Origin: Escherichia phage Wphi
Length of the DNA stretch: 32,684 bases
Reading direction: 5' to 3' (one strand)
Sequence record: AY135739
Part shown: positions 7,510 to 28,511 of the stretch, piece after piece
Layout of the letters: each line of letters starts with the position of its first letter
How positions within the stretch are numbered: the first letter of the stretch is position 1
The notes under the pieces: generated by a model
Told to the model about the DNA's origin: nothing
Seen by the model: the letters and a program-made list of their open reading frames with translations, nothing else
Databases searched by the model: none
Position numbers and translations under genes: made by a program

Positions 7510-7935
7510 ATGAAGAAATTATCCCTTTCACTGATGCTGAACGTGTCGCTGGCGCTGATGCTGGCACTGTCCCTGATTTACCCGCAGAGCGTGGCCGTCA
7601 AGTTTGTCTGCACCTGGGCGATTCTGGCGACGGTTATCTGTGTGGTTGCCGGTGGTGTCGGCGTGTATGCCACTGAGTATGTGCTGGAACGCTACGGGCG
7701 GGAGCTGCCGCCTGAATCGCTTGCCGTGAAGATTGTCACGTCGTTGTTTTTGCAGCCGGTGCCGTGGCGCAGACGGGCGGCGGCTCTGGTGGTGATGGTG
7801 GCGACGTTTATCTCGCTGGTCGCTGCCGGGTGGATTTTTACCGCGCTGATTTACCTCGTGGCGTCGCTGTTCTTCCGGCTGATACGTACGGCCTGTCGTC
7901 AGCGTTTTGAGGGGCGGGAACCATGTCAAAGCTGA
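7510..7935 (+). CDS. lysA: lysis accessory membrane protein (putative antiholin)
   Basis: 141-aa strongly hydrophobic protein with multiple predicted TM helices; P2 lysA position and size. Confidence 0.7.
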   Translation: MKKLSLSLMLNVSLALMLALSLIYPQSVAVKFVCTWAILATVICVVAGGVGVYATEYVLERYGRELPPESLAVKIVTSLFLQPVPWRRRAAALVVMVATFISLVAAGWIFTALIYLVASLFFRLIRTACRQRFEGREPCQS

Positions 7936-11860: not shown

Positions 11861-13870
11861 ATGAGCACAAAATTCAAAACCGTTATCACCACTGCCGGTG
11901 CAGTAAAGCTGGCAGCGGCAACCGCGCCGGGAGGGCGGAAGGTCAACATTACCACGATGGCCGTCGGGGATGGCGGTGGTAAATTGCCTGTCCCGGATGC
12001 CGGACAGACCGGGCTTATCCACGAAGTCTGGCGACATGCGCTGAACAAAATCAGCCAGGACAAACGAAACAGTAATTATATTATCGCAGAGCTGGTTATT
12101 CCGCCGGAGGTGGGCGGTTTCTGGATGCGAGAGCTTGGCCTGTACGATGATGCGGGAACGTTAATTGCCGTGGCGAACATGGCCGAAAGTTATAAACCTA
12201 CCCTTGCCGAAGGCTCAGGGCGTTCGCAGACCTGCCGCATGGTCATCATCGTCAGCAGTGTGGCCTCAGTGGAGCTGACCATTGACACCACAACGGTGAT
12301 GGCGACGCAGGATTACGTTGATGACAAAATTGCAGAGCATGAACAGTCACGACGTCACCCGGATGCCTCGCTGACCGCAAAAGGTTTTACTCAGTTAAGC
12401 AATGCGACCAACAGCACGTCTGAAACACTGGCCGCAACGCCGAAAGCGGTTAAGGCCGCATATGACCTTGCTAACGGGAAATATACCGCACAGGACGCCA
12501 CCACCGCGCGAAAAGGCCTTGTCCAGCTCAGTAGCGCGACTAACAGCACGTCTGAAACGCTCGCCGCAACACCAAAAGCCGTTAAGACGGTAATGGATGA
12601 AACGAACAAGAAAGCGCCATTAAACAGCCCTGCACTGACCGGAACGCCAACGACGCCAACTGCGCGACAGGGAACGAATAATACTCAGATCGCAAACACG
12701 GCTTTCGTTATGGCCGCGATTGCCGCCCTTGTAGACTCGTCGCCTGACGCACTGAATACGCTGAACGAGCTGGCGGCGGCGCTGGGCAATGACCCGAATT
12801 TTGCTACCACCATGACTAATGCGCTTGCGAGTAAGCAACCGAAAGATGCCACTTTGACGGCGCTGGCGGGGCTTGCTACTGCGGCAGACAGGTTTCCGTA
12901 TTTTACGGGGAATGATGTTGCCAGCCTGGCGACCCTGACAAAAGTCGGGCGGGATATTCTGGCTAAATCGACCGTTGCCGCCGTTATCGAATATCTCGGT
13001 TTGCAGGAAACGGTAAACAGGGCCAGGAACGCGGTGCAAAAGAATGGCGATATCTTGTCCGGCGGAATTACTTTTGAAAACGACTCAATCCTTGCCTGGA
13101 TTCGAAATACTGACTGGGCGAAGATTGGATTTAAAAATGATGCCGATGGTGACGCTGATTCATACATGTGGTTTGAAACGGGGGATAACGGCAATGAATA
13201 TTTCAAATGGAGAAGCCGCCAGAGTACCACAACAAAAGACCTGATGACGCTGAAATGGGATGCACTAAATATTCTTGTTAATGCCGTCATTAATGGCTGT
13301 CTTGGAGTTGGTACGACGAATGCACTAGGTGGTAGCTCTATTGTCCTTGGTGATAATGATACCGGATTTAAACAGAATGGAGACGGTATTCTTGATGTTT
13401 ATGCTAACAGTCAGCGTGTATTCCGTTTTCAGAATGGAGTGGCTATTGCTTTTAAAAATATTCAGGTAGGGGATAGTAAAAAGTTCTCGCTATCCAGCTC
13501 TAACACATCCACGAAGAATATTACCTTTAATTTATGGGGTGCTTCCAACCGTCCAGTGGTTGCAGAGTTAGGCGATGAGTCCGGATGGCATTTCTATAGC
13601 CAGCGAAATACAGATAACTCGGTAATATTTGCTGTTAACGGTCAGATGCAACCCAGCAACTGGGGAAATTTTGATTCCCGCTATGTGAAAGATGTTCGCC
13701 TGGGTACGCGAGTTGATCAATTGATGGCGCGAGGTGGTCGTTATGAAAAAGCCGGACACACGATTACCGGATTAAGAATCATTGGTGAAGTTGATGGCGA
13801 TGATGAAGCCATCGTCAGGCCAATACAAAAATACATCAATGGCACATGGTATATCGTCGCACAGGTGTAA
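11861..13870 (+). CDS. H: tail fibre protein
   Basis: 669-aa ORF after the baseplate genes; internal repeated motif NSTSETLAATPKAVK; AT-rich C-terminal third (putative receptor-binding part). Confidence 0.85.
   Translation: MSTKFKTVITTAGAVKLAAATAPGGRKVNITTMAVGDGGGKLPVPDAGQTGLIHEVWRHALNKISQDKRNSNYIIAELVIPPEVGGFWMRELGLYDDAGTLIAVANMAESYKPTLAEGSGRSQTCRMVIIVSSVASVELTIDTTTVMATQDYVDDKIAEHEQSRRHPDASLTAKGFTQLSNATNSTSETLAATPKAVKAAYDLANGKYTAQDATTARKGLVQLSSATNSTSETLAATPKAVKTVMDETNKKAPLNSPALTGTPTTPTARQGTNNTQIANTAFVMAAIAALVDSSPDALNTLNELAAALGNDPNFATTMTNALASKQPKDATLTALAGLATAADRFPYFTGNDVASLATLTKVGRDILAKSTVAAVIEYLGLQETVNRARNAVQKNGDILSGGITFENDSILAWIRNTDWAKIGFKNDADGDADSYMWFETGDNGNEYFKWRSRQSTTTKDLMTLKWDALNILVNAVINGCLGVGTTNALGGSSIVLGDNDTGFKQNGDGILDVYANSQRVFRFQNGVAIAFKNIQVGDSKKFSLSSSNTSTKNITFNLWGASNRPVVAELGDESGWHFYSQRNTDNSVIFAVNGQMQPSNWGNFDSRYVKDVRLGTRVDQLMARGGRYEKAGHTITGLRIIGEVDGDDEAIVRPIQKYINGTWYIVAQV
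12404..12588 (+). repeat. intragenic direct repeat (two roughly 50-bp copies 132 bp apart) inside H
   Basis: Near-identical copies starting at 12404 and 12536, in frame, encoding ATNSTSETLAATPKAVK twice; also mirrored as a repeated peptide in the antisense ORF 12391..12609. Confidence 0.6.
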
Positions 13871-13873
13871 TTT

Positions 13874-14401
13874 ATGCAGCATTTAAAGAATATTACTGCG
13901 GGTAATCCAAAAACTGTTGCCCAATATCATCTGACAAAAAATTTTGATGTTATCTGGTTATGGTCCGAAGAGGGAAAAAACTGGTATGAGGAAGTAAGTA
14001 AGTTTCAGGAAGACACGATAAAGATTGTTTACGATGAAAATAATATTATTGTCGCCATCACCAGAGATGCTTCAACGCTTAATCCTGAAGGTTTTAGCGT
14101 CGTTGAGGTTCCTGATATTACTTCCAACCGGCGTGCTGATGACTCTGGTAAATGGATGTTTAAGGATGGTGCTGTGGTTAAACGGATTTATACGGCAGAT
14201 GAACAGCAACAACAGGCAGAATCACAAAAGGCCGCGTTACTTTCCGAAGCGGAAAGCGTTATTCAGCCACTGGAACGCGCTGTCAGGCTGAATATGGCGA
14301 CGGATGAGGAACGTGCACGACTGGAGTCATGGGAACGCTACAGCGTTCTGGTCAGCCGTGTGGATCCTGCAAATCCTGAATGGCCGGAAATGCCGCAATA
14401 A
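13874..14401 (+). CDS. G: tail fibre assembly (chaperone) protein
   Basis: 175-aa ORF immediately after H; P2 gpG position and size. Confidence 0.8.
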
Positions 14402-14439
14402 GTTGTATGAGCTCTAGTGTGGGCTTACATATCTATGGC

Positions 14440-14478
14440 ACAGAGTAAAGCCTAATCTGACAGTCCACTCTGTGCCAG
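14440..14478. repeat. perfect 10-bp inverted repeat (GGCACAGAGT ... ACTCTGTGCC) with 19-nt spacer
   Basis: Read directly from sequence; lies between G and the cargo gene; no flanking T-tract on either strand, so not a canonical intrinsic terminator. Confidence 0.55.
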
Positions 14479-14616
14479 AGGTGGGCATTGCTGATGTCAT
14501 AAAATATTATGCCAGCAGCCGTCTTAGGGGAGTGTTTACATTTCAATGATCGGGTATGATCTCGGCATGTTAATGGTTTATTACTAAATGCTTGCGCCTA
14601 TCTTTATGGAGGAGTA

Positions 14617-15516
14617 ATGAGTGGTATTCGTATAACTCAGGCTATTGATAACAATCAGATTTTAGTAAATGTAAATACTTTTAATTATAGTGTTAATCCC
14701 TATCCACTCAAATGTCCTGACCCAAATTGCTCTGCTCATTTGGTGTATGTCAAAAGCCATATTCGTCGGAGTTTTAATAAAACCTTGCATATCCCCGCCT
14801 TCTTTAGACTGGAAAAAAATTTCACGCATGACAAATTATGTCAGTATGGAACTTCAGGATTGAATACAATTTATGCAAGTGATTCCAGTCATGATATCAG
14901 CCGTGCGCTTGCCACAGGTAATAATATATTCCGTATACATATACTCGATGAAGATGATATCTCTAAATTAAGCAGAAAAGCTGCAGCTATGCAGGCAAAT
15001 CCACCTTCTGATACTACAGACCGCGTTTATGTCAAGAGAGGTCGGAAAGCCCCCTATGTGAAGAACATGGATAGCTTACGGGAGATCTATGAATATGGAA
15101 AAGCTCACCCCAACAAGAGAAACAGCATAAAAATTGTTACTGGAACAAGTACTGTAACGTGGTCTGATTTTTTCTATGAAACAACGCAGTTAGAACGATT
15201 GTCAACTTACCTCCAGAAAGTAAAAATAGCTCAGGTTGCTGTAATTATGAAAGTGCATGTGGCGAGAATCCCTATGGCGAAATTTAATTATCGACACTTC
15301 ATTGAAGGTTCGCCAATGAGGATAAAAGGGGGCTTTAATATATATCCTACGATTCAATTAGGAAATGTTACTCCAAAATTATTTCCGTTGAGTAGCATTG
15401 TCATGGTACTCGGTAAATTTACTATTCCAACAAATAGAAAAATGATAATGGATCCAACATTTGAGCGTGAAGTCAGAACCATAGTTTCTAGTGAAGAGCA
15501 AGTGCTAATTCTTTGA
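14617..15516 (+). CDS. hypothetical protein, accessory (moron) gene in the Z/fun slot between G and FI
   Basis: 299-aa ORF with strong RBS (GGAGGAGTA-ATG); markedly AT-rich versus flanking tail genes; flanked by 215-bp and 319-bp non-coding gaps; no family recognised. Confidence 0.7.
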   Translation: MSGIRITQAIDNNQILVNVNTFNYSVNPYPLKCPDPNCSAHLVYVKSHIRRSFNKTLHIPAFFRLEKNFTHDKLCQYGTSGLNTIYASDSSHDISRALATGNNIFRIHILDEDDISKLSRKAAAMQANPPSDTTDRVYVKRGRKAPYVKNMDSLREIYEYGKAHPNKRNSIKIVTGTSTVTWSDFFYETTQLERLSTYLQKVKIAQVAVIMKVHVARIPMAKFNYRHFIEGSPMRIKGGFNIYPTIQLGNVTPKLFPLSSIVMVLGKFTIPTNRKMIMDPTFEREVRTIVSSEEQVLIL

Positions 15517-15710
15517 AATCAAGAGGATTTGGCTCGGATGATTATGTGCGGCTTATAACCATAACGTAATGAGCGGATTTTTCTACTGCTTTTTATCATT
15601 TTGGTTAACTAAAACTAACCTCTGCTCCTCGCTCAAAGCAGACTGTCAGATTTGATAGCGTTTTGGCTATGTAAATTGTCAGTCGGAAAATGAGTGAGTA
15701 CAAATCAGGA

Positions 15711-15740
15711 CAGGCGGGCGAATTGCCTGCCTTTTCTTTA
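15711..15740 (+). terminator. weak putative terminator after the cargo gene
   Basis: Short stem CAGGC/GCCTG with 9-nt loop followed by CCTTTTCTTTAT; marginal. Confidence 0.3.
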
Positions 15741-15835
15741 TCTGTTGTTTCATCCACTGACCAGCCAGGTCAAATAGCGTCTCATGCACTGCCCAACAGA
15801 AAATAGTTGCACCCATTAACCACGGAGTTAAACGG
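15741..15835 (+). promoter_or_regulatory. putative late promoter P_F region upstream of FI
   Basis: By P2 synteny the fourth late promoter precedes FI; motif not confidently resolved by eye. Confidence 0.3.
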
Positions 15836-17026
15836 ATGAGTGACTATCATCACGGCGTGCAGGTGCTGGAGATTAACGAGGGCACCCGCGTCATTTCCAC
15901 CGTATCCACCGCCATTGTTGGCATGGTCTGCACGGCCAGCGATGCGGATGCGGAAATCTTCCCCCTCAATAAACCGGTACTGATTACCAATGTGCAGAGT
16001 GCAATTGCAAAGGCCGGTAAAAAAGGCACGCTGGCGGCGTCGTTGCAGGCTATCGCCGACCAGTCAAAACCGGTCACCGTTGTCGTACGTGTGGAAGACG
16101 GCACCGGCGAAGACGAAGAAACGAAACTCGCGCAGACCGTTTCCAATATCATCGGCACCACTGACGAAAACGGTCAGTACACCGGACTGAAGGCCCTGCT
16201 GGCGGCAGAGTCGGTAACCGGTGTTAAACCGCGTATTCTCGGCGTGCCGGGACTGGACACCAAAGAGGTGGCTGTTGCACTGGCATCAGTCTGTCAGAAG
16301 CTGCGCGCTTTCGGGTATATCAGCGCATGGGGCTGTAAAACCATTTCCGAGGTGAAAGCCTACCGCCAGAATTTCAGCCAGCGTGAGCTGATGGTCATCT
16401 GGCCGGATTTCCTCGCATGGGATACGGTCGCCAGTACCACCGCCACCGCGTATGCCACCGCCCGTGCGCTGGGTCTGCGCGCTAAAATCGACCAGGAGCA
16501 GGGCTGGCATAAAACGCTGTCCAACGTCGGGGTGAACGGTGTTACCGGCATCAGCGCGTCCGTATTCTGGGATTTGCAGGAGTCCGGCACCGATGCTGAC
16601 CTGCTTAACGAGTCAGGCGTCACAACGCTGATTCGCCGTGACGGTTTCCGCTTCTGGGGTAACCGTACCTGCTCTGATGATCCGCTGTTCCTCTTTGAAA
16701 ACTACACCCGCACCGCGCAGGTGCTGGCCGACACGATGGCTGAGGCGCACATGTGGGCGGTGGACAAGCCCATCACCGCAACGCTGATTCGCGACATCGT
16801 TGACGGCATCAATGCCAAATTCCGTGAGCTGAAAACAAACGGCTATATCGTGGATGCGACCTGCTGGTTCAGCGAAGAGTCCAACGATGCGGAAACCCTC
16901 AAGGCCGGAAAACTGTATATCGACTACGACTATACCCCGGTGCCTCCTCTTGAAAATCTGACCCTGCGCCAGCGCATTACCGATAAATACCTGGCAAATC
17001 TGGTCACTTCGGTTAACAGCAATTAA
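15836..17026 (+). CDS. FI: contractile tail sheath protein
   Basis: 396-aa ORF, GGAG RBS; P2 gpFI position and size. Confidence 0.9.
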   Translation: MSDYHHGVQVLEINEGTRVISTVSTAIVGMVCTASDADAEIFPLNKPVLITNVQSAIAKAGKKGTLAASLQAIADQSKPVTVVVRVEDGTGEDEETKLAQTVSNIIGTTDENGQYTGLKALLAAESVTGVKPRILGVPGLDTKEVAVALASVCQKLRAFGYISAWGCKTISEVKAYRQNFSQRELMVIWPDFLAWDTVASTTATAYATARALGLRAKIDQEQGWHKTLSNVGVNGVTGISASVFWDLQESGTDADLLNESGVTTLIRRDGFRFWGNRTCSDDPLFLFENYTRTAQVLADTMAEAHMWAVDKPITATLIRDIVDGINAKFRELKTNGYIVDATCWFSEESNDAETLKAGKLYIDYDYTPVPPLENLTLRQRITDKYLANLVTSVNSN

Positions 17027-17889: not shown

Positions 17890-18041
17890 CGTTCCCGAAA
17901 AATTTCTCGGTCGATGACCTGATGGCGGATGTGGCAGTGATATTTCACTGGCCGCCATCAGAACTGTATCCCATGAGCCTGACCGAACTCATCACATGGC
18001 GCGAAAAGGCGCTCCGGCGAAGCGGAAACACGAATGAGTGA
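17614..18041 (+). CDS. E': tail assembly chaperone E+E' (programmed -1 frameshift product)
   Basis: Slippery heptamer T_TTT_TTG at 17862-17868 in E frame; -1 frame is open from 17868 to TGA at 18039-18041, giving 85+57=142 aa; extension ends just inside the T start, as known for P2 E+E'. Confidence 0.6.
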
Positions 18042-26236: not shown

Positions 26237-28511
26237 AGCCTCCGGGCGTTTTGTCCCTCCGTCAGCATTTGCCGCAGGCACCGGTAAGGCGTTTACCGGT
26301 GCTTATGCATGGAACGCGCCACGCGAGGCTGTCGGGCGCGAAAGACCCCTTACACGTGACGAGATGCGTCAGGTGCAAGGTGTTTTATCCACGATTAACC
26401 GCCTGCCTTACTTTTTGCGCTCGCTGGTTACTTCACGCTATGACTACATCCGGCGCAATAAAAGCCCGGTGCACGGGTTTTATTTCCTTACATCCACTTT
26501 TCAGCGTCGTTTATGGCCGCGCATTGAGCGCGTGAATCAGCGCCATGAAATGAACACCGACGCGTCGTTGCTGTTTCTGGCAGAGCGTGACCATTATGCG
26601 CGCCTGCCTGGAATGAATGACAAGGAGCTGAAAAAGTTTGCTGCCCGTATCTCATCGCAGCTTTTCATGATGTATGAGGAACTCTGCGATGCATGGGTTG
26701 ATGCTCATGGCGAAAAAGAATCGCTGTTTACGGATGAGGCGCAGACTCACCTGTATGGTCATGTTGCTGGCGCTGCACGTGCTTTCAATATTTCCCCGCT
26801 CTACTGGAAAAAATACCGTAAAGGGCAGATGACCACGAGGCAGGCATATTCTGCCATTGCCCGCCTGTTTAACGATGAGTGGTGGACTCATCAGCTTAAA
26901 GGCCAGCGTATGCGCTGGCATGAGGCGTTACTGATTGCTGTCGGGGAGGTCAATAAAGACCGTTCTCCTTATGCCAGTAAACATGCCATTCGTGATGTGC
27001 GTGCGCGCCGCCAGGCAAATCTGGAATTTCTTAAATCGTGTGACCTTGAAAACAAGGAAACCGGCGAGCGCATCGACCTTATCAGTAAGGTGATGGGCAG
27101 TATTTCTAATCCAGAAATTCGCCGGATGGAGCTGATGAACACCATCGCCGGTATTGAGCGTTACGCCGCCGCAGAGGGTGATGTGGGGATGTTTATCACG
27201 CTGACCGCGCCGTCAAAGTATCACCCGACACGTCAGGTCAGAAAAGGCGAAAGTAAAACCGTCCAGCTAAATCACGGCTGGAACGATGAGGCATTTAATC
27301 CAAAGGATGCGCAGCGTTATCTCTGCCGTATCTGGAGCCTGATGCGCACGGCATTCAAGGATAATGATTTACAGGCCTACGGTTTGCGTGTTGTTGAACC
27401 ACACCACGACGGAACGCCGCACTGGCATATGATGCTTTTTTGTAATCCACGCCAGCGTAACCAGATTATTGAAATCATGCGTCGCTATGCGCTCAAAGAG
27501 GATGGCGACGAAAGAGGAGCCGCGCGAAACCGTTTTCAGGCAAAACACCTTAACCGGGGCGGTGCTGCGGGATATATCGCGAAATACATCTCAAAAAACA
27601 TCGACGGCTATGCACTGGATGGTCAGCTCGATAATGATACCGGCAGGCTGCTGAAAGACACTGCAGCGGCTGTTACCGCATGGGCGTCTACGTGGCGCAT
27701 TCCGCAATTTAAAACGGTTGGCCTGCCGACAATGGGGGCTTACCGTGAGCTACGCAAATTGCCTCGCGGCGTCAGCATTGCTGATGAGTTTGACGAACGC
27801 GTCGAGGCTGCACGCGCCGCCGCAGACAGTGGTGATTTTGCGCTGTATATCAGCGCGCAGGGCGGGGCAAATGTCCCGCGCGATTGTCAGACTGTCAGGG
27901 TCGCCCGTAGCCCGTCGGATGACGTTAACGAGTACGAGGAAGAAGTCGAGAGAGTGGTAGGCATTTACGCGCCGCATCTCGGCGCGCGTCATATTCATAT
28001 CACCAGAACGACGGACTGGCGCATTGTGCCGAAAGTTCCGGTCGTTGAGCCTTTGACTTTAAAAAGCGGCATCGCCGCGCCTCGGAGTCCTGTCAATAAC
28101 TGTGGAAAGCCTGCCAGCAGTGATAATTCGTTACCGGCTCCCACGCCTTCTGAGCACGCCGCAGCAGTGCTTAATCTGGTTGATGACGGTGTTATCGAAT
28201 GGAATGACCCGGAGGTCGTGAGGGCGCTCAGGGGCGCATTAAAACACGGGCTGAGAACACCAAATCGTCAGCAGAGAAACGGAAGCCCGTTAAAAACACA
28301 TGAAATTGCACCGTCGGCCAGACTGACCCGGTCGGAACGAATGCAAATTACCCGTATCCGCGTTGACCTCGCTCAGAACGGTATCAGGCCGCAGCGATGG
28401 GAGCTTGAGGCGCTGGCGCGTGGCGCGACCGTAAATTATGACGGGAAAAAATTCACGTATCCAGTCGCTGATGAGTGGCCGGGATTCTCAACAGTAATGG
28501 AGTGGACATGA
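26226..28511 (+). CDS. A: rolling-circle replication initiator endonuclease
   Basis: Start placed at ATG 26226 (MAVKASGRFVPPS...), 761 aa as for P2 gpA; contains HUH-like HWHMMLF and catalytic-tyrosine region GYIAKYISKN. Confidence 0.88.
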   Translation: MAVKASGRFVPPSAFAAGTGKAFTGAYAWNAPREAVGRERPLTRDEMRQVQGVLSTINRLPYFLRSLVTSRYDYIRRNKSPVHGFYFLTSTFQRRLWPRIERVNQRHEMNTDASLLFLAERDHYARLPGMNDKELKKFAARISSQLFMMYEELCDAWVDAHGEKESLFTDEAQTHLYGHVAGAARAFNISPLYWKKYRKGQMTTRQAYSAIARLFNDEWWTHQLKGQRMRWHEALLIAVGEVNKDRSPYASKHAIRDVRARRQANLEFLKSCDLENKETGERIDLISKVMGSISNPEIRRMELMNTIAGIERYAAAEGDVGMFITLTAPSKYHPTRQVRKGESKTVQLNHGWNDEAFNPKDAQRYLCRIWSLMRTAFKDNDLQAYGLRVVEPHHDGTPHWHMMLFCNPRQRNQIIEIMRRYALKEDGDERGAARNRFQAKHLNRGGAAGYIAKYISKNIDGYALDGQLDNDTGRLLKDTAAAVTAWASTWRIPQFKTVGLPTMGAYRELRKLPRGVSIADEFDERVEAARAAADSGDFALYISAQGGANVPRDCQTVRVARSPSDDVNEYEEEVERVVGIYAPHLGARHIHITRTTDWRIVPKVPVVEPLTLKSGIAAPRSPVNNCGKPASSDNSLPAPTPSEHAAAVLNLVDDGVIEWNDPEVVRALRGALKHGLRTPNRQQRNGSPLKTHEIAPSARLTRSERMQITRIRVDLAQNGIRPQRWELEALARGATVNYDGKKFTYPVADEWPGFSTVMEWT

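What the first reader, a model, noticed from the sequence alone, without database searches (positions are those of the whole stretch)
14440..14478. Perfect 10-bp inverted repeat upstream of the Z/fun-slot cargo gene
GGCACAGAGT and its exact reverse complement, separated by 19 nt, lie between the G stop and the cargo gene. There is no T-tract after the stem on either strand, so it looks less like an intrinsic terminator and more like a protein-binding palindrome or a structured RNA element that could regulate the cargo gene. A possible sigma70-like promoter (TTTACA ... TATGAT, short spacer) lies about 60 bp downstream.
Basis: seen in the sequence. Interest (0 to 1): 0.4.

Follow-up and report, generated by a model that had tools for sequence, protein, structure and literature searches.

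The report
Hairpin inside P2 cargo-slot inverted repeat
The palindrome is real, but it is a conserved stem-loop inside the already described inverted repeats that bracket the swappable "Z/fun" defence-gene slot of P2-like phages (repeats that look like the ends of a transposase-less mobile cassette), not a switch tailored to the gene next to it.

Summary
The palindrome exists, slightly off the stated coordinates: an 11-bp perfect stem, 14436-14446 / 14467-14477, with a 20-nt loop. One such repeat per window is expected by chance, so its weight comes from conservation.

It lies in a ~90-bp block (14404-14492) that follows the G stop in all P2-type phages sampled, whatever the cargo (44 cargo types, either strand). 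An inverted copy (15617-15702) closes the slot.

GenBank records from Nilsson et al. 2004 already annotate this block as the "left inverted repeat" of the P2 Z region.

New here:
- Homologous arms also bracket other cargos in lambdoid Stx/cdtI phages and in conjugative plasmids.
- Their outer tips (TGTATTAGCTCAG...) are flanked by 7-bp target duplications of differing sequence: five perfect, and 5/7 in this window. No transposase lies between them.
- P2 relatives in other genera have an empty site, with the G stop followed at once by the late-operon terminator. In this window that terminator sits at 15711-15742.

The stem is 94.5% paired across 58 diverse arms, with two compensatory positions. 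Its loop is the best conserved part of the arm.

Verdict: a structural element of a known cassette end, not a cargo-specific regulator and not a terminator. Its molecular role is unresolved.

The parts
13874..14401 (+). Gene G (tail fibre assembly), last gene of the late V operon. Context only.
   Evidence: ORF list. Annotated as GpG in 97%-identical phage HQ103 and other Peduovirus records.
14397..14403 (.). Left copy of the degenerate 7-bp target-site duplication (AATAAGT). It includes the G stop codon.
   Evidence: Matches AATCAGG at 15703-15709 in 5 of 7 positions. Relatives in other elements have perfect 7-bp duplications at the same position.
14404..14492 (+). Left arm, the 'left inverted repeat' of the P2 Z region. 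It runs from the tip TGTATGAGCTC to the inner end ...GGTGGGC-ATT.
   Evidence: Conserved in all P2-type loci regardless of cargo. Annotated as repeat_region 'left inverted repeat' in AJ512676/AJ512681. nhmmer arm profile hit at 14425-14491, E = 7e-19.
14436..14477 (+). Hairpin A, the finding itself. 5' arm 14436-14446 (TGGCACAGAGT), loop 14447-14466 (AAAGCCTAATCTGACAGTCC), 3' arm 14467-14477 (ACTCTGTGCCA).
   Evidence: Across arms from other elements it is 94.5% paired, with compensatory GC>CG and GC>AU changes. Diversity is 0.065-0.11, against 0.239 at synonymous sites of G.
14463..14486 (+). Hairpin B (GTCCACT / GGTGGGC; consensus GTCCGCT-N10-AGCGGAC). It overlaps the 3' arm of hairpin A and is only weakly supported.
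   Evidence: The window and the Stx-phage copy show compensated variants. Over 58 arms it is 80.3% paired and no better than shuffles (78/500). Its 3' arm is as variable as synonymous sites.
14493..15616 (.). Cargo region, holding the ORF 14617-15516 (+, 299 aa, no family match).
   Evidence: Homology among P2-type phages breaks at both ends of this region. No Pfam or PADLOC hit.
15617..15702 (-). Right arm, the inverted copy. It holds the same loop motif AATCTGACAGTC (15652-15641 on the - strand) inside its own hairpin (15630-15637 with 15651-15660), plus a hairpin B counterpart (15621-15626 / 15637-15642). The tip is ...GAGTACA.
   Evidence: The 12-mer occurs exactly twice in the window, in inverted orientation. 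Alignment of left against reverse-complemented right gives z = 5.9. nhmmer hit at 15675-15617, E = 4e-14. The right-arm hairpin is 89% Watson-Crick in 48 variants.
15703..15709 (.). Right copy of the degenerate target-site duplication (AATCAGG).
15711..15742 (+). Intrinsic terminator (AGGCGGGCGAATTGCCTGCCT followed by TTTTCTTT). This is the original terminator of the V operon, displaced from the G stop by the cassette.
   Evidence: Terminator scan. In P2-like prophages of other genera the same hairpin follows the G-like stop codon within 2-10 nt, and no cassette is present.
15836..17026 (+). Gene FI (tail sheath). Context only.

Best explanation
Shown:
- The palindrome is the internal stem-loop of the ~90-bp left arm of a pair of inverted repeats that bracket the variable Z/fun slot.
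- The arms are kept while the cargo between them is exchanged.
- The arm pair with its cargo sits between the G stop codon and the original late-operon terminator, which is now 1.3 kb away.
- Homologous arm pairs bracket other cargos in lambdoid phages and conjugative plasmids. There the outer tips (5'-TGTATTAGCTCAG...) are flanked by 7-bp direct duplications of differing sequence, and no transposase lies inside.

Inferred:
- The arms are the terminal inverted repeats of a non-autonomous, transposon-like cassette. In P2 it has become a fixed docking slot: the tips have decayed and the duplication matches only 5/7. Cargos are probably swapped by homologous recombination through the arms.
- The stem-loop is a working part of that end. 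It holds the most conserved stretch of the arm (loop ...AATCTGACAG...) between complementary flanks. The right arm keeps a hairpin around the same motif with a different stem sequence.
- Most likely (about 0.4 within this picture) it is an architectural or recognition element for whatever acts on the ends, meaning an unknown transposase or host factor, possibly on a transiently single-stranded, folded form.

Because it lies in the 3' UTR of G, it will also fold in late read-through RNA. It is not a regulator designed for the neighbouring cargo gene.
For: Backbone, not cargo:
- The sequence is identical or near-identical from the G stop through the stem in 10 annotated and about 115 IMG/VR P2-type loci carrying 44 cargo clusters. 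Homology is lost just after the arm.
- The right border is equally sharp and is the reverse complement of the left.

Already annotated as 'left/right inverted repeat' in AJ512676-82, and cited as such in PMC8987985.

Empty sites in other genera: G stop, then terminator, then P_F promoter, then FI.

Same arms elsewhere:
- Stx1a/Stx2c phages, between xis and int.
- Phage cdtI.
- Yersinia and Serratia conjugative plasmids, and Klebsiella plasmids.
- Other phages, after DUF4376 tail-fibre chaperone genes.

Target duplications:
- Perfect 7/7: TATCAGG, ATTAAAT, CCTGAGG, TTTCATG, AATAATT.
- 6/7 in two loci.
- 5/7 in the window.

No transposase was found among 70 + 10 cargo ORFs.

Stem under selection:
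- 94.5% of cells paired, with 0/500 shuffles reaching that value, and slid controls at 56% or less.
- Compensatory GC>CG in 5 sequences and GC>AU in 4. The closing pair is UG 36 / CG 16 / UA 2.
- The right-arm hairpin is 89% Watson-Crick and has three compensated differences relative to the left.
- Diversity of stem and loop is 0.065-0.11, against 0.239 at synonymous sites of G.
Against: - No transposase or other protein that recognises the arms was identified, so mobility is inferred only from duplications and from the spread of contexts.
- In this window the duplication is only 5/7, and the right tip (TGTACTCAC...) has diverged from the left (TGTATGAGC...).
- Most stem positions hardly vary, so the covariation rests on two or three pairs among related sequences.
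- G.U versus A.C mismatches show no strand bias (12 vs 16, p = 0.57), so RNA, ssDNA and dsDNA readings are not separated.
- How new cargos first get between the arms is unexplained. There is no duplication at the inner junctions.
- The published view, seen only second-hand, is site-specific recombination rather than transposition.
Confidence: 0.7

Rival explanations
1. RNA-level insulator or 3'-end structure. Late V-operon transcripts must read past the G stop into the arm, because the terminator has been displaced. The hairpin folds in that RNA. It would protect the G mRNA 3' end from exonucleases and/or damp read-through and translation into a possibly toxic defence cargo. The mirror-image arm would do the same for leftward transcripts.
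For: - The hairpin starts 35 nt after the G stop, and the only intrinsic terminator is beyond the cargo.
- In nearly all contexts the arms begin 0-5 nt after the stop codon of an upstream gene.
- Left and right arms keep complementarity with different stem sequences.
- In the right arm, G.U pairs are favoured on the outside-in strand (20 vs 3 and 43 vs 18).
- The closing pair of hairpin A is U.G in 36 of 58 copies.
Against: - No U-tract and a 20-nt loop.
- The loop is the most conserved part, which a simple RNA clamp does not need.
- There is no strand bias of wobbles in the nine core pairs of hairpin A.
- No transcript data were available.
Confidence: 0.3
2. A site for a site-specific recombinase, which is the published reading of the Z-region inverted repeats. 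Under this view the hairpin, or the GTCCGCT/AGCGGAC dyad, is a core site at which cargo cassettes are exchanged between phages and bacteria.
For: - Cargo borders are sharp, within about 3 nt of AGCGGAC-RTT on both sides for 44 cargos.
- Nilsson et al. 2004, as cited in PMC8987985, say so.
- An Enterobacter MAG shows arm ends back to back (GGAC ATTACTAA GTCCGC), which looks like an empty core.
Against: - No recombinase is linked to the arms. There is one Phage_integrase and one DDE transposase among 70 cargo ORFs.
- There is no shared overlap sequence or duplication at the inner junctions.
- No cargo was found in both orientations.
- The outer flanks carry duplications of differing sequence, which is typical of transposition.
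- Hairpin B is no better than shuffles, and its 3' arm is poorly conserved.
Confidence: 0.15
3. One reading: an operator or riboregulator that controls the adjacent cargo gene.
For: It lies 140 nt upstream of the cargo start codon, on the same strand, near promoter-like hexamers.
Against: - The same element sits in front of 44 unrelated cargos, many on the opposite strand, and is duplicated in inverted form beyond the cargo.
- The cargo ORF has no recognisable DNA-binding domain.
- Nilsson's records place the cargo promoters downstream of the repeat.
Confidence: 0.05
4. Rho-independent terminator of the V (V-W-J-I-H-G) operon.
For: A stable stem (-21 kcal/mol) directly downstream of the last late gene.
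Against: - A 20-nt loop, no T-tract, and no call from the scan.
- The ancestral terminator is identifiable elsewhere, at 15711-15742.
- In canonical P2 the annotated putative terminator is a different hairpin, next to fun(Z).
Confidence: 0.05
5. A relic with no present function. The complementarity would be left over from an internal inverted duplication in the ancestral arm, and would be conserved only because the sampled elements are closely related.
For: Most stem positions are invariant, and a 10-bp palindrome of this kind is expected about once per window by chance.
Against: - Diversity in the stem and loop is 2-4 times lower than at synonymous sites of the adjacent gene in the same genomes.
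- The stem persists in arms about 20-25% diverged overall, from plasmids and lambdoid phages, with compensatory changes.
Confidence: 0.1

Closest known systems
Inverted repeats flanking the Z/fun region of P2-like coliphages (Nilsson, Karlsson & Haggard-Ljungquist 2004; GenBank AJ512676-AJ512682)
   Same: The same locus and the same sequence. Window 14425-14492 aligns at 89-95% to the stretch annotated 'left inverted repeat', and the right repeat matches too. This is membership, not just resemblance.
   Different: The records annotate only the repeats. The internal stem-loop, its covariation, the tips with 7-bp duplications of differing sequence, and the occurrence in plasmids and after tail-fibre chaperone genes of other phages were worked out here. 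I could not read the 2004 paper, so some of this may already be in it. Its proposed mechanism (site-specific recombination) differs from the transposition signature seen here.
Non-autonomous transposable elements with passenger genes (mobile insertion cassettes, MITE-like elements). Concept from general knowledge of IS biology.
   Same: Terminal inverted repeats, a target-site duplication of fixed length and differing sequence, no transposase inside, many insertion contexts, and passenger genes between the ends.
   Different: The cognate transposase and its family are unknown. The arms are long (~90 bp) and internally structured. Cargo turnover between fixed arms is extreme. The P2 copy looks immobilised.
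Intrinsic (rho-independent) terminators
   Same: A stable stem directly after the last gene of an operon.
   Different: A 20-nt loop and no U-tract. The true terminator of this operon is the GGCGGGC...GCCYGCC-T-tract hairpin at 15711-15742.
IS66-family insertion sequence ends
   Same: In Klebsiella and Pantoea plasmids the arm starts at the stop codon of an IS66 tnpC gene.
   Different: That IS has its own IRR (GTAAGCG...) and a perfect 8-bp duplication 2.7 kb further on. The arm and fhuE are passengers inside it. ISCro1 has normal ends with no arm. This is not the same thing.
ERIC/IRU and other enterobacterial intergenic imperfect palindromes (recalled from memory, not tested)
   Same: Dispersed, about 100-nt, hairpin-forming, transcribed intergenic repeats next to stop codons. 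Short shared strings (GAGCTTACAT, TGAGCGAGGA) were noticed.
   Different: No alignment was made, and no such family matched in Rfam. As I recall, ERIC elements are single palindromic units that do not bracket cargo.

Membership tests
P2 Z-region inverted repeats (Nilsson et al. 2004) | Lies between G (tail fibre assembly) and FI (sheath) of a P2-like phage, flanking variable non-essential ORFs | tested here: met
P2 Z-region inverted repeats (Nilsson et al. 2004) | Sequence homologous to the annotated 'left inverted repeat' | tested here: met
   blastn hits to AJ512676/79/81/82 at 88-96% lie under the feature 'left inverted repeat'; feature tables
P2 Z-region inverted repeats (Nilsson et al. 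2004) | An inverted partner on the other side of the cargo | tested here: met
   (15617-15702, - strand)
Transposon-like element (TIR + TSD) | Terminal inverted repeats with defined tips | tested here: met
   Tips TGTATTAGCTCAGATTTGA are identical 19/19 on both ends in L221. In the window they are TGTATGAGC / TGTACTCAC, i.e. decayed.
Transposon-like element (TIR + TSD) | Target-site duplication of constant length and differing sequence | tested here: met
   Five perfect 7-bp duplications and two at 6/7 in relatives. In the window itself only 5/7 (inconclusive on its own).
Transposon-like element (TIR + TSD) | Encoded or identifiable transposase | tested here: not met
   None in 80 cargo ORFs. 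The element would therefore be non-autonomous, and its partner is unknown.
Transposon-like element (TIR + TSD) | Empty sites in related genomes | tested here: met
   P2-like prophages of Yersinia, Kosakonia, Scandinavium, Citrobacter and others: G-like stop, then terminator, then FI
Transposon-like element (TIR + TSD) | Demonstrated movement | not testable with these tools
   Needs a transposition assay
Intrinsic terminator | Short loop (3-8 nt) and a U-tract after a G+C-rich stem | tested here: not met
   20-nt loop, no T run, no scan hit
IS66-family terminal repeat | GTAAGCG... terminus, IRL/IRR similarity, 8-bp duplication at the arm end | tested here: not met
Integron attC / cassette array | Recombination sites in direct orientation with R''/R' core sites (GTTRRRY) and a linked IntI | tested here: not met
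   The arms are inverted. RTT follows GGAC, but no consistent GTTRRRY is present. No integrase is linked.
Invertible segment (Gin/Hin-type) | The same segment found in both orientations between inverted repeats | tested here: not met
   0 reverse-orientation matches among 106 cargos
Any curated RNA family (Rfam 15) | Covariance-model match | tested here: not met
   Only two chance-level hits (E = 0.65 and 1.1) elsewhere in 13800-16000
Cargo-specific operator | Co-occurrence with one cargo or regulator | tested here: not met
   Same element with 44 cargo clusters

The most novel reading that the evidence does not exclude
The 'inverted repeats' of the P2 Z/fun hotspot are the ends of a widespread family of transposase-less, structured-arm transposable cassettes in Enterobacterales. 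These cassettes have tips TGTATTAGCTCAG..., a 7-bp target duplication, and insert right after stop codons. They deliver and exchange anti-phage defence cargo among P2-like phages, lambdoid Stx/cdt phages, other tailed phages and conjugative plasmids. The conserved hairpin, with its loop AATCTGACAG kept in both arms with different stems, would be the recognition structure for the still unknown mobilising enzyme, possibly acting on folded single-stranded DNA. This would replace the 'site-specific recombination' reading and give a concrete mechanism for how one phage defence hotspot is filled.
Probability: 0.4. Interest if true: 0.65.

Novelty: already known. Interest (0 to 1): 0.35.

Why it matters
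The Z/fun slot of P2-like prophages is one of the best known reservoirs of anti-phage systems, but how it is filled has been left open.

This palindrome belongs to conserved, hairpin-bearing arms. Those arms also bracket cargo in Stx/cdt phages and in plasmids, and they carry transposition-type target duplications. That turns 'hotspot' into a testable mechanism: portable arms that act as transposon ends and as homology handles.

For annotation, the arms (about 90 nt each) are a precise marker of cargo boundaries. The arrangement also shows that the late-operon terminator has been displaced, so late transcripts must enter the cassette. That matters for the expression of possibly toxic defence genes during lytic growth.

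As a stand-alone item, the palindrome is an ordinary part of a described repeat.

Tried and rejected
1. **IS66 end.** The arm begins at the tnpC stop in three plasmid IS66 copies. Rejected: the Klebsiella IS66 has its own IRR and a perfect 8-bp duplication further on, with the arm and fhuE inside it. ISCro1 is normal.
2. **Inversion switch.** No cargo was seen in both orientations.
3. **Duplication or overlap sequence at the inner (cargo-side) junctions.** None; same-locus pairs share no more k-mers than random pairs.
4. **attC-like core sites.** Not consistent.
5. **Hairpin B as an attenuator or terminator partner of hairpin A.** It has attractive compensations in the window and in the Stx phage. 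Over 58 arms, however, it is no better than shuffles, and its 3' arm is poorly conserved.
6. **Strand of action from G.U versus A.C mismatches.** No bias in hairpin A. There is a bias only in the right arm and in the closing pair.
7. **Rfam.** Nothing.
8. **Autonomous copy.** A viral-contig scan with the tip and Pfam on the cargo ORFs found no transposase.
9. **Literature.** Rousset 2022 and the iLund4u preprint do not mention the repeats. Nilsson 2004 and Odegrip 2006 are not held. Sequence-string searches found nothing relevant.
10. **Cargo protein.** No Pfam or PADLOC match; not pursued.

Full report
**1. Observation**

The window is a P2-like (Peduovirus) genome. It is 97% identical across this region to Yersinia phage HQ103 and to a 'Peduovirus P2' record. 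G (tail fibre assembly) ends at 14401, a 299-aa ORF occupies 14617-15516, and FI (sheath) starts at 15836.

The reported arms are at 14437-14446 (GGCACAGAGT) and 14467-14476 (ACTCTGTGCC), with 20 nt between them. That is 3 nt upstream of the stated coordinates, and the spacer is one base longer. The perfect stem is 11 bp (14436-14446 / 14467-14477). Canonical P2 has the same stem with a 19-nt loop.

The hairpin folds at -21 kcal/mol on the + strand (z = -3.5) and -25.3 kcal/mol on the - strand (z = -4.7). No T-tract follows on either strand, and the terminator scan does not call it.

By itself it is not beyond chance. About one perfect inverted repeat of at least 10 bp with a 3-30 nt loop is expected per shuffled window, and the window has three.

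**2. It is backbone, not cargo**

In ten annotated Peduovirus genomes with different genes in the G-FI slot, on either strand, the sequence from the G stop through the palindrome is conserved. Similarity stops a few bases beyond it.

120 IMG/VR loci were collected with a 17-mer from the end of G, so they were not selected on the hairpin. Apart from six chance matches to the 17-mer outside P2-like phages, all show the same pattern. The consensus is TATCTATGGCACAGAGTAAAGCCTAATCTGACAGTCCGCTCTGTGCCARGAGCGGACRTT, followed by unrelated sequence. The 106 loci that reach FI carry 44 cargo clusters. Their ORFs are typical defence genes: AAA_15/AAA_21 with DUF4435, DarT/Macro, AbiGi, TIR, Cap15, SMEK, RES and others.

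The right border is equally sharp. Read on the other strand, it is the same sequence: AATCTGACAGTCTGCTTTGAGCGARGAGCGGACRTT. The 12-mer AATCTGACAGTC occurs exactly twice in the window, in inverted orientation. Left against reverse-complemented right aligns with z = 5.9.

**3. Already described**

blastn of 14425-14492 against phage records hits the 'proviral Z-region' entries AJ512676-AJ512682 of Nilsson et al. There, exactly this stretch is annotated as repeat_region 'left inverted repeat' (positions 3-115), and a 91-nt 'right inverted repeat' is annotated on the other side.

[quoted passage not shown] 2004 (PMC8987985). I could not read the 2004 paper. Recent hotspot papers do not mention the repeats.

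The finding is therefore a sub-structure of a known feature.

**4. What the arms are**

A scan of one genome per species with the FI protein shows that most P2-like prophages outside Escherichia have an empty site. There, the G-like stop codon is followed within 2-10 nt by the intrinsic terminator GGCGGGC-N4-GCCCGCC-TTTTCTTT, then by the late P_F promoter and FI. In the window that terminator is at 15711-15742. The segment 14404-15702 is therefore an insertion between G and its terminator.

Homologous arms occur outside P2:
- In 24 Stx1a/Stx2c phages, between an excisionase-like gene and int, around a 517-aa ORF.
- In phage cdtI, between xis and int, around a different ORF.
- In 59-221 plasmid records of Klebsiella, Escherichia, Pantoea, Salmonella, Yersinia, Serratia and others.
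- In other phage contigs, after DUF4376 tail-fibre chaperone genes.

An nhmmer profile finds + / - arm pairs around cargo in these loci.

The outer tips are crisp (5'-TGTATTAGCTCAGATTTGA; 19/19 identical at both ends of the Serratia element). They are flanked by 7-bp direct repeats of differing sequence:

| Locus | Left / right repeat | Match |
|---|---|---|
| L221 | TATCAGG | 7/7 |
| L242 | ATTAAAT | 7/7 |
| L245 | CCTGAGG | 7/7 |
| L235 | TTTCATG | 7/7 |
| L229 | AATAATT | 7/7 |
| L217 | TGTAAAG / TATAAAG | 6/7 |
| Stx phage (L215) | AGTAATA / AGTAACA | 6/7 |
| Window | AATAAGT (14397-14403) / AATCAGG (15703-15709) | 5/7 |

No transposase lies between the arms.

This is the signature of a non-autonomous transposable cassette. 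The differing duplications argue against recombination at a single fixed site. In P2 the tips have diverged (TGTATGAGC against TGTACTCAC) and the duplication has decayed, so the copy is probably fixed. The shared ~90-bp arms would then serve as homology for swapping cargo. That last step is inference. One observation fits it: a P2 left-arm variant carries a Stx-type 3' part.

**5. The hairpin itself**

On 58 diverse left-type arms (alignment A2), the 10 pairs form standard pairs in 94.5% of cells. No shuffle out of 500 reaches this, and controls with the partners slid by 1-3 columns give 56% or less. Two pairs show changes on both sides: GC>CG in five sequences and GC>AU in four. The closing pair is U.G 36, C-G 16, U-A 2.

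The right arm has a hairpin at the homologous place around the same loop motif, but with a different stem (CGCT-AT-CAAA / TTTGAGCG). It is 89% Watson-Crick in 48 variants and has three compensated differences from the left stem.

Within 71 P2-type haplotypes, nucleotide diversity is as follows:

| Region | Diversity |
|---|---|
| Third codon positions of G | 0.239 |
| First and second codon positions of G | 0.061 |
| Hairpin A stem arms | 0.08-0.11 |
| Hairpin A loop | 0.065 |

The stem-loop is therefore under constraint, and the loop is the most constrained part.

A second, overlapping hairpin (GTCCGCT-N10-AGCGGAC) looked attractive, because it has compensated variants in the window and in the Stx phage. 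It is no better than shuffles over the 58 arms (80.3%, 78/500), and its 3' arm is as variable as synonymous sites.

G.U versus A.C mismatches show no strand bias in the nine core pairs of hairpin A (12 vs 16). They do favour the outside-in strand in the right arm. RNA, single-stranded DNA and duplex readings therefore remain open.

**6. Mechanism**

Shown: the element is part of a conserved cassette end that is independent of cargo, and it is not a terminator.

Inferred, in order of preference:
- (a) An architectural or recognition element of the cassette end for an unidentified transposase or host factor. The supporting pattern is a conserved loop motif held between complementary flanks of differing sequence in both arms.
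- (b) A hairpin acting on late read-through RNA from G, either stabilising the 3' end or insulating the cargo. This is plausible because the terminator is displaced and the arms nearly always start right after a stop codon.
- (c) A site for a site-specific recombinase, as in the literature.
- (d) A relic with no present function.

**7. Leads that failed**

- An apparent link to IS66 ends. The arm starts at the tnpC stop in three plasmids. It dissolved when the Klebsiella IS66 turned out to have its own IRR and a perfect 8-bp duplication, with the arm and fhuE as passengers.
- No inversion of cargo.
- No duplication at the inner junctions.
- No Rfam family.
- No autonomous copy.

**8. Verdict**

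The feature is already known as part of the P2 Z-region left inverted repeat. The transposon-like signature and the wider distribution of the arms are the parts worth following up.

Noticed in passing
window 15711-15742: The strong intrinsic terminator upstream of P_F/FI is the ancestral terminator of the V operon. In P2-like prophages of other genera it directly follows the G-like stop codon. In this window it is separated from G by the 1.3-kb cassette, so late transcripts must cross the cargo to reach it.
   Followed up: yes
window 14617-15516: The 299-aa cargo ORF has no Pfam or PADLOC match. Its N-terminus has a C-x4-C...H-rich stretch. The same ORF occurs in phage HQ103 and in one 'Peduovirus P2' record, annotated as hypothetical.
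   Followed up: partly
window 14489-14519: A second imperfect hairpin just inside the cargo (GCTGATGTCAT-AAAATATT-ATGCCAGCAGC, 9 of 11 pairs). It overlaps the promoter-like TGGGCA-17-TATTAT hit at 14482-14510.
   Followed up: no
window 14413-14424: A 12-nt insertion/deletion polymorphism in the outer part of the left arm (GAGCT[CTAGTGTGGGCT]TACA). It is absent in L004/L006-type phages.
   Followed up: no
window 15680-15817 (- strand): A small ORF annotated as a hypothetical protein in several relatives. It overlaps the terminator and the P_F promoter region and is probably not a gene.
   Followed up: no
window 17919-17961 and 26278-26302: The two other perfect 10-bp inverted repeats with short loops in the window: CTGATGGCGG with a 23-nt loop, and GCACCGGTAA with a 5-nt loop.
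   Followed up: no
L219 / L247 (Klebsiella pneumoniae plasmid pINF078-VP, NZ_CP032832.1): An IS66-family element with a perfect 8-bp duplication (ATCAGGTC). Between tnpC and its IRR it carries a solo left-type arm and the siderophore receptor gene fhuE as passengers. No right arm was detected.
   Followed up: partly
L150 ~7750-7860 (Enterobacter MAG, upstream of FI): A right-type hairpin, a left-type hairpin and 'GGAC ATTACTAA GTCCGC' lie back to back. This could be tandem or emptied cassettes.
   Followed up: no
L217 4964-5517 (Yersinia massiliensis conjugative plasmid, downstream of traM): The smallest arm pair seen, about 550 bp with only ~360 nt between the arms and a 66-aa ORF. It looks like a near-empty, MITE-like form of the cassette.
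   Followed up: partly
L215, L218, L216, L225, L237, window: The arms start within 0-5 nt of the stop codon of the upstream gene (G, excisionase, DUF4376 chaperone, a hypothetical gene, IS66 tnpC), and many duplications contain TAA. This could be a target preference or the result of selection.
   Followed up: partly
L132 440-467 (canonical P2, NC_001895 15639-15666): The record's 'putative rho-independent terminator for V operon' lies inside the cargo, next to the fun(Z) stop. It is neither the conserved arm hairpin nor the ancestral terminator.
   Followed up: partly
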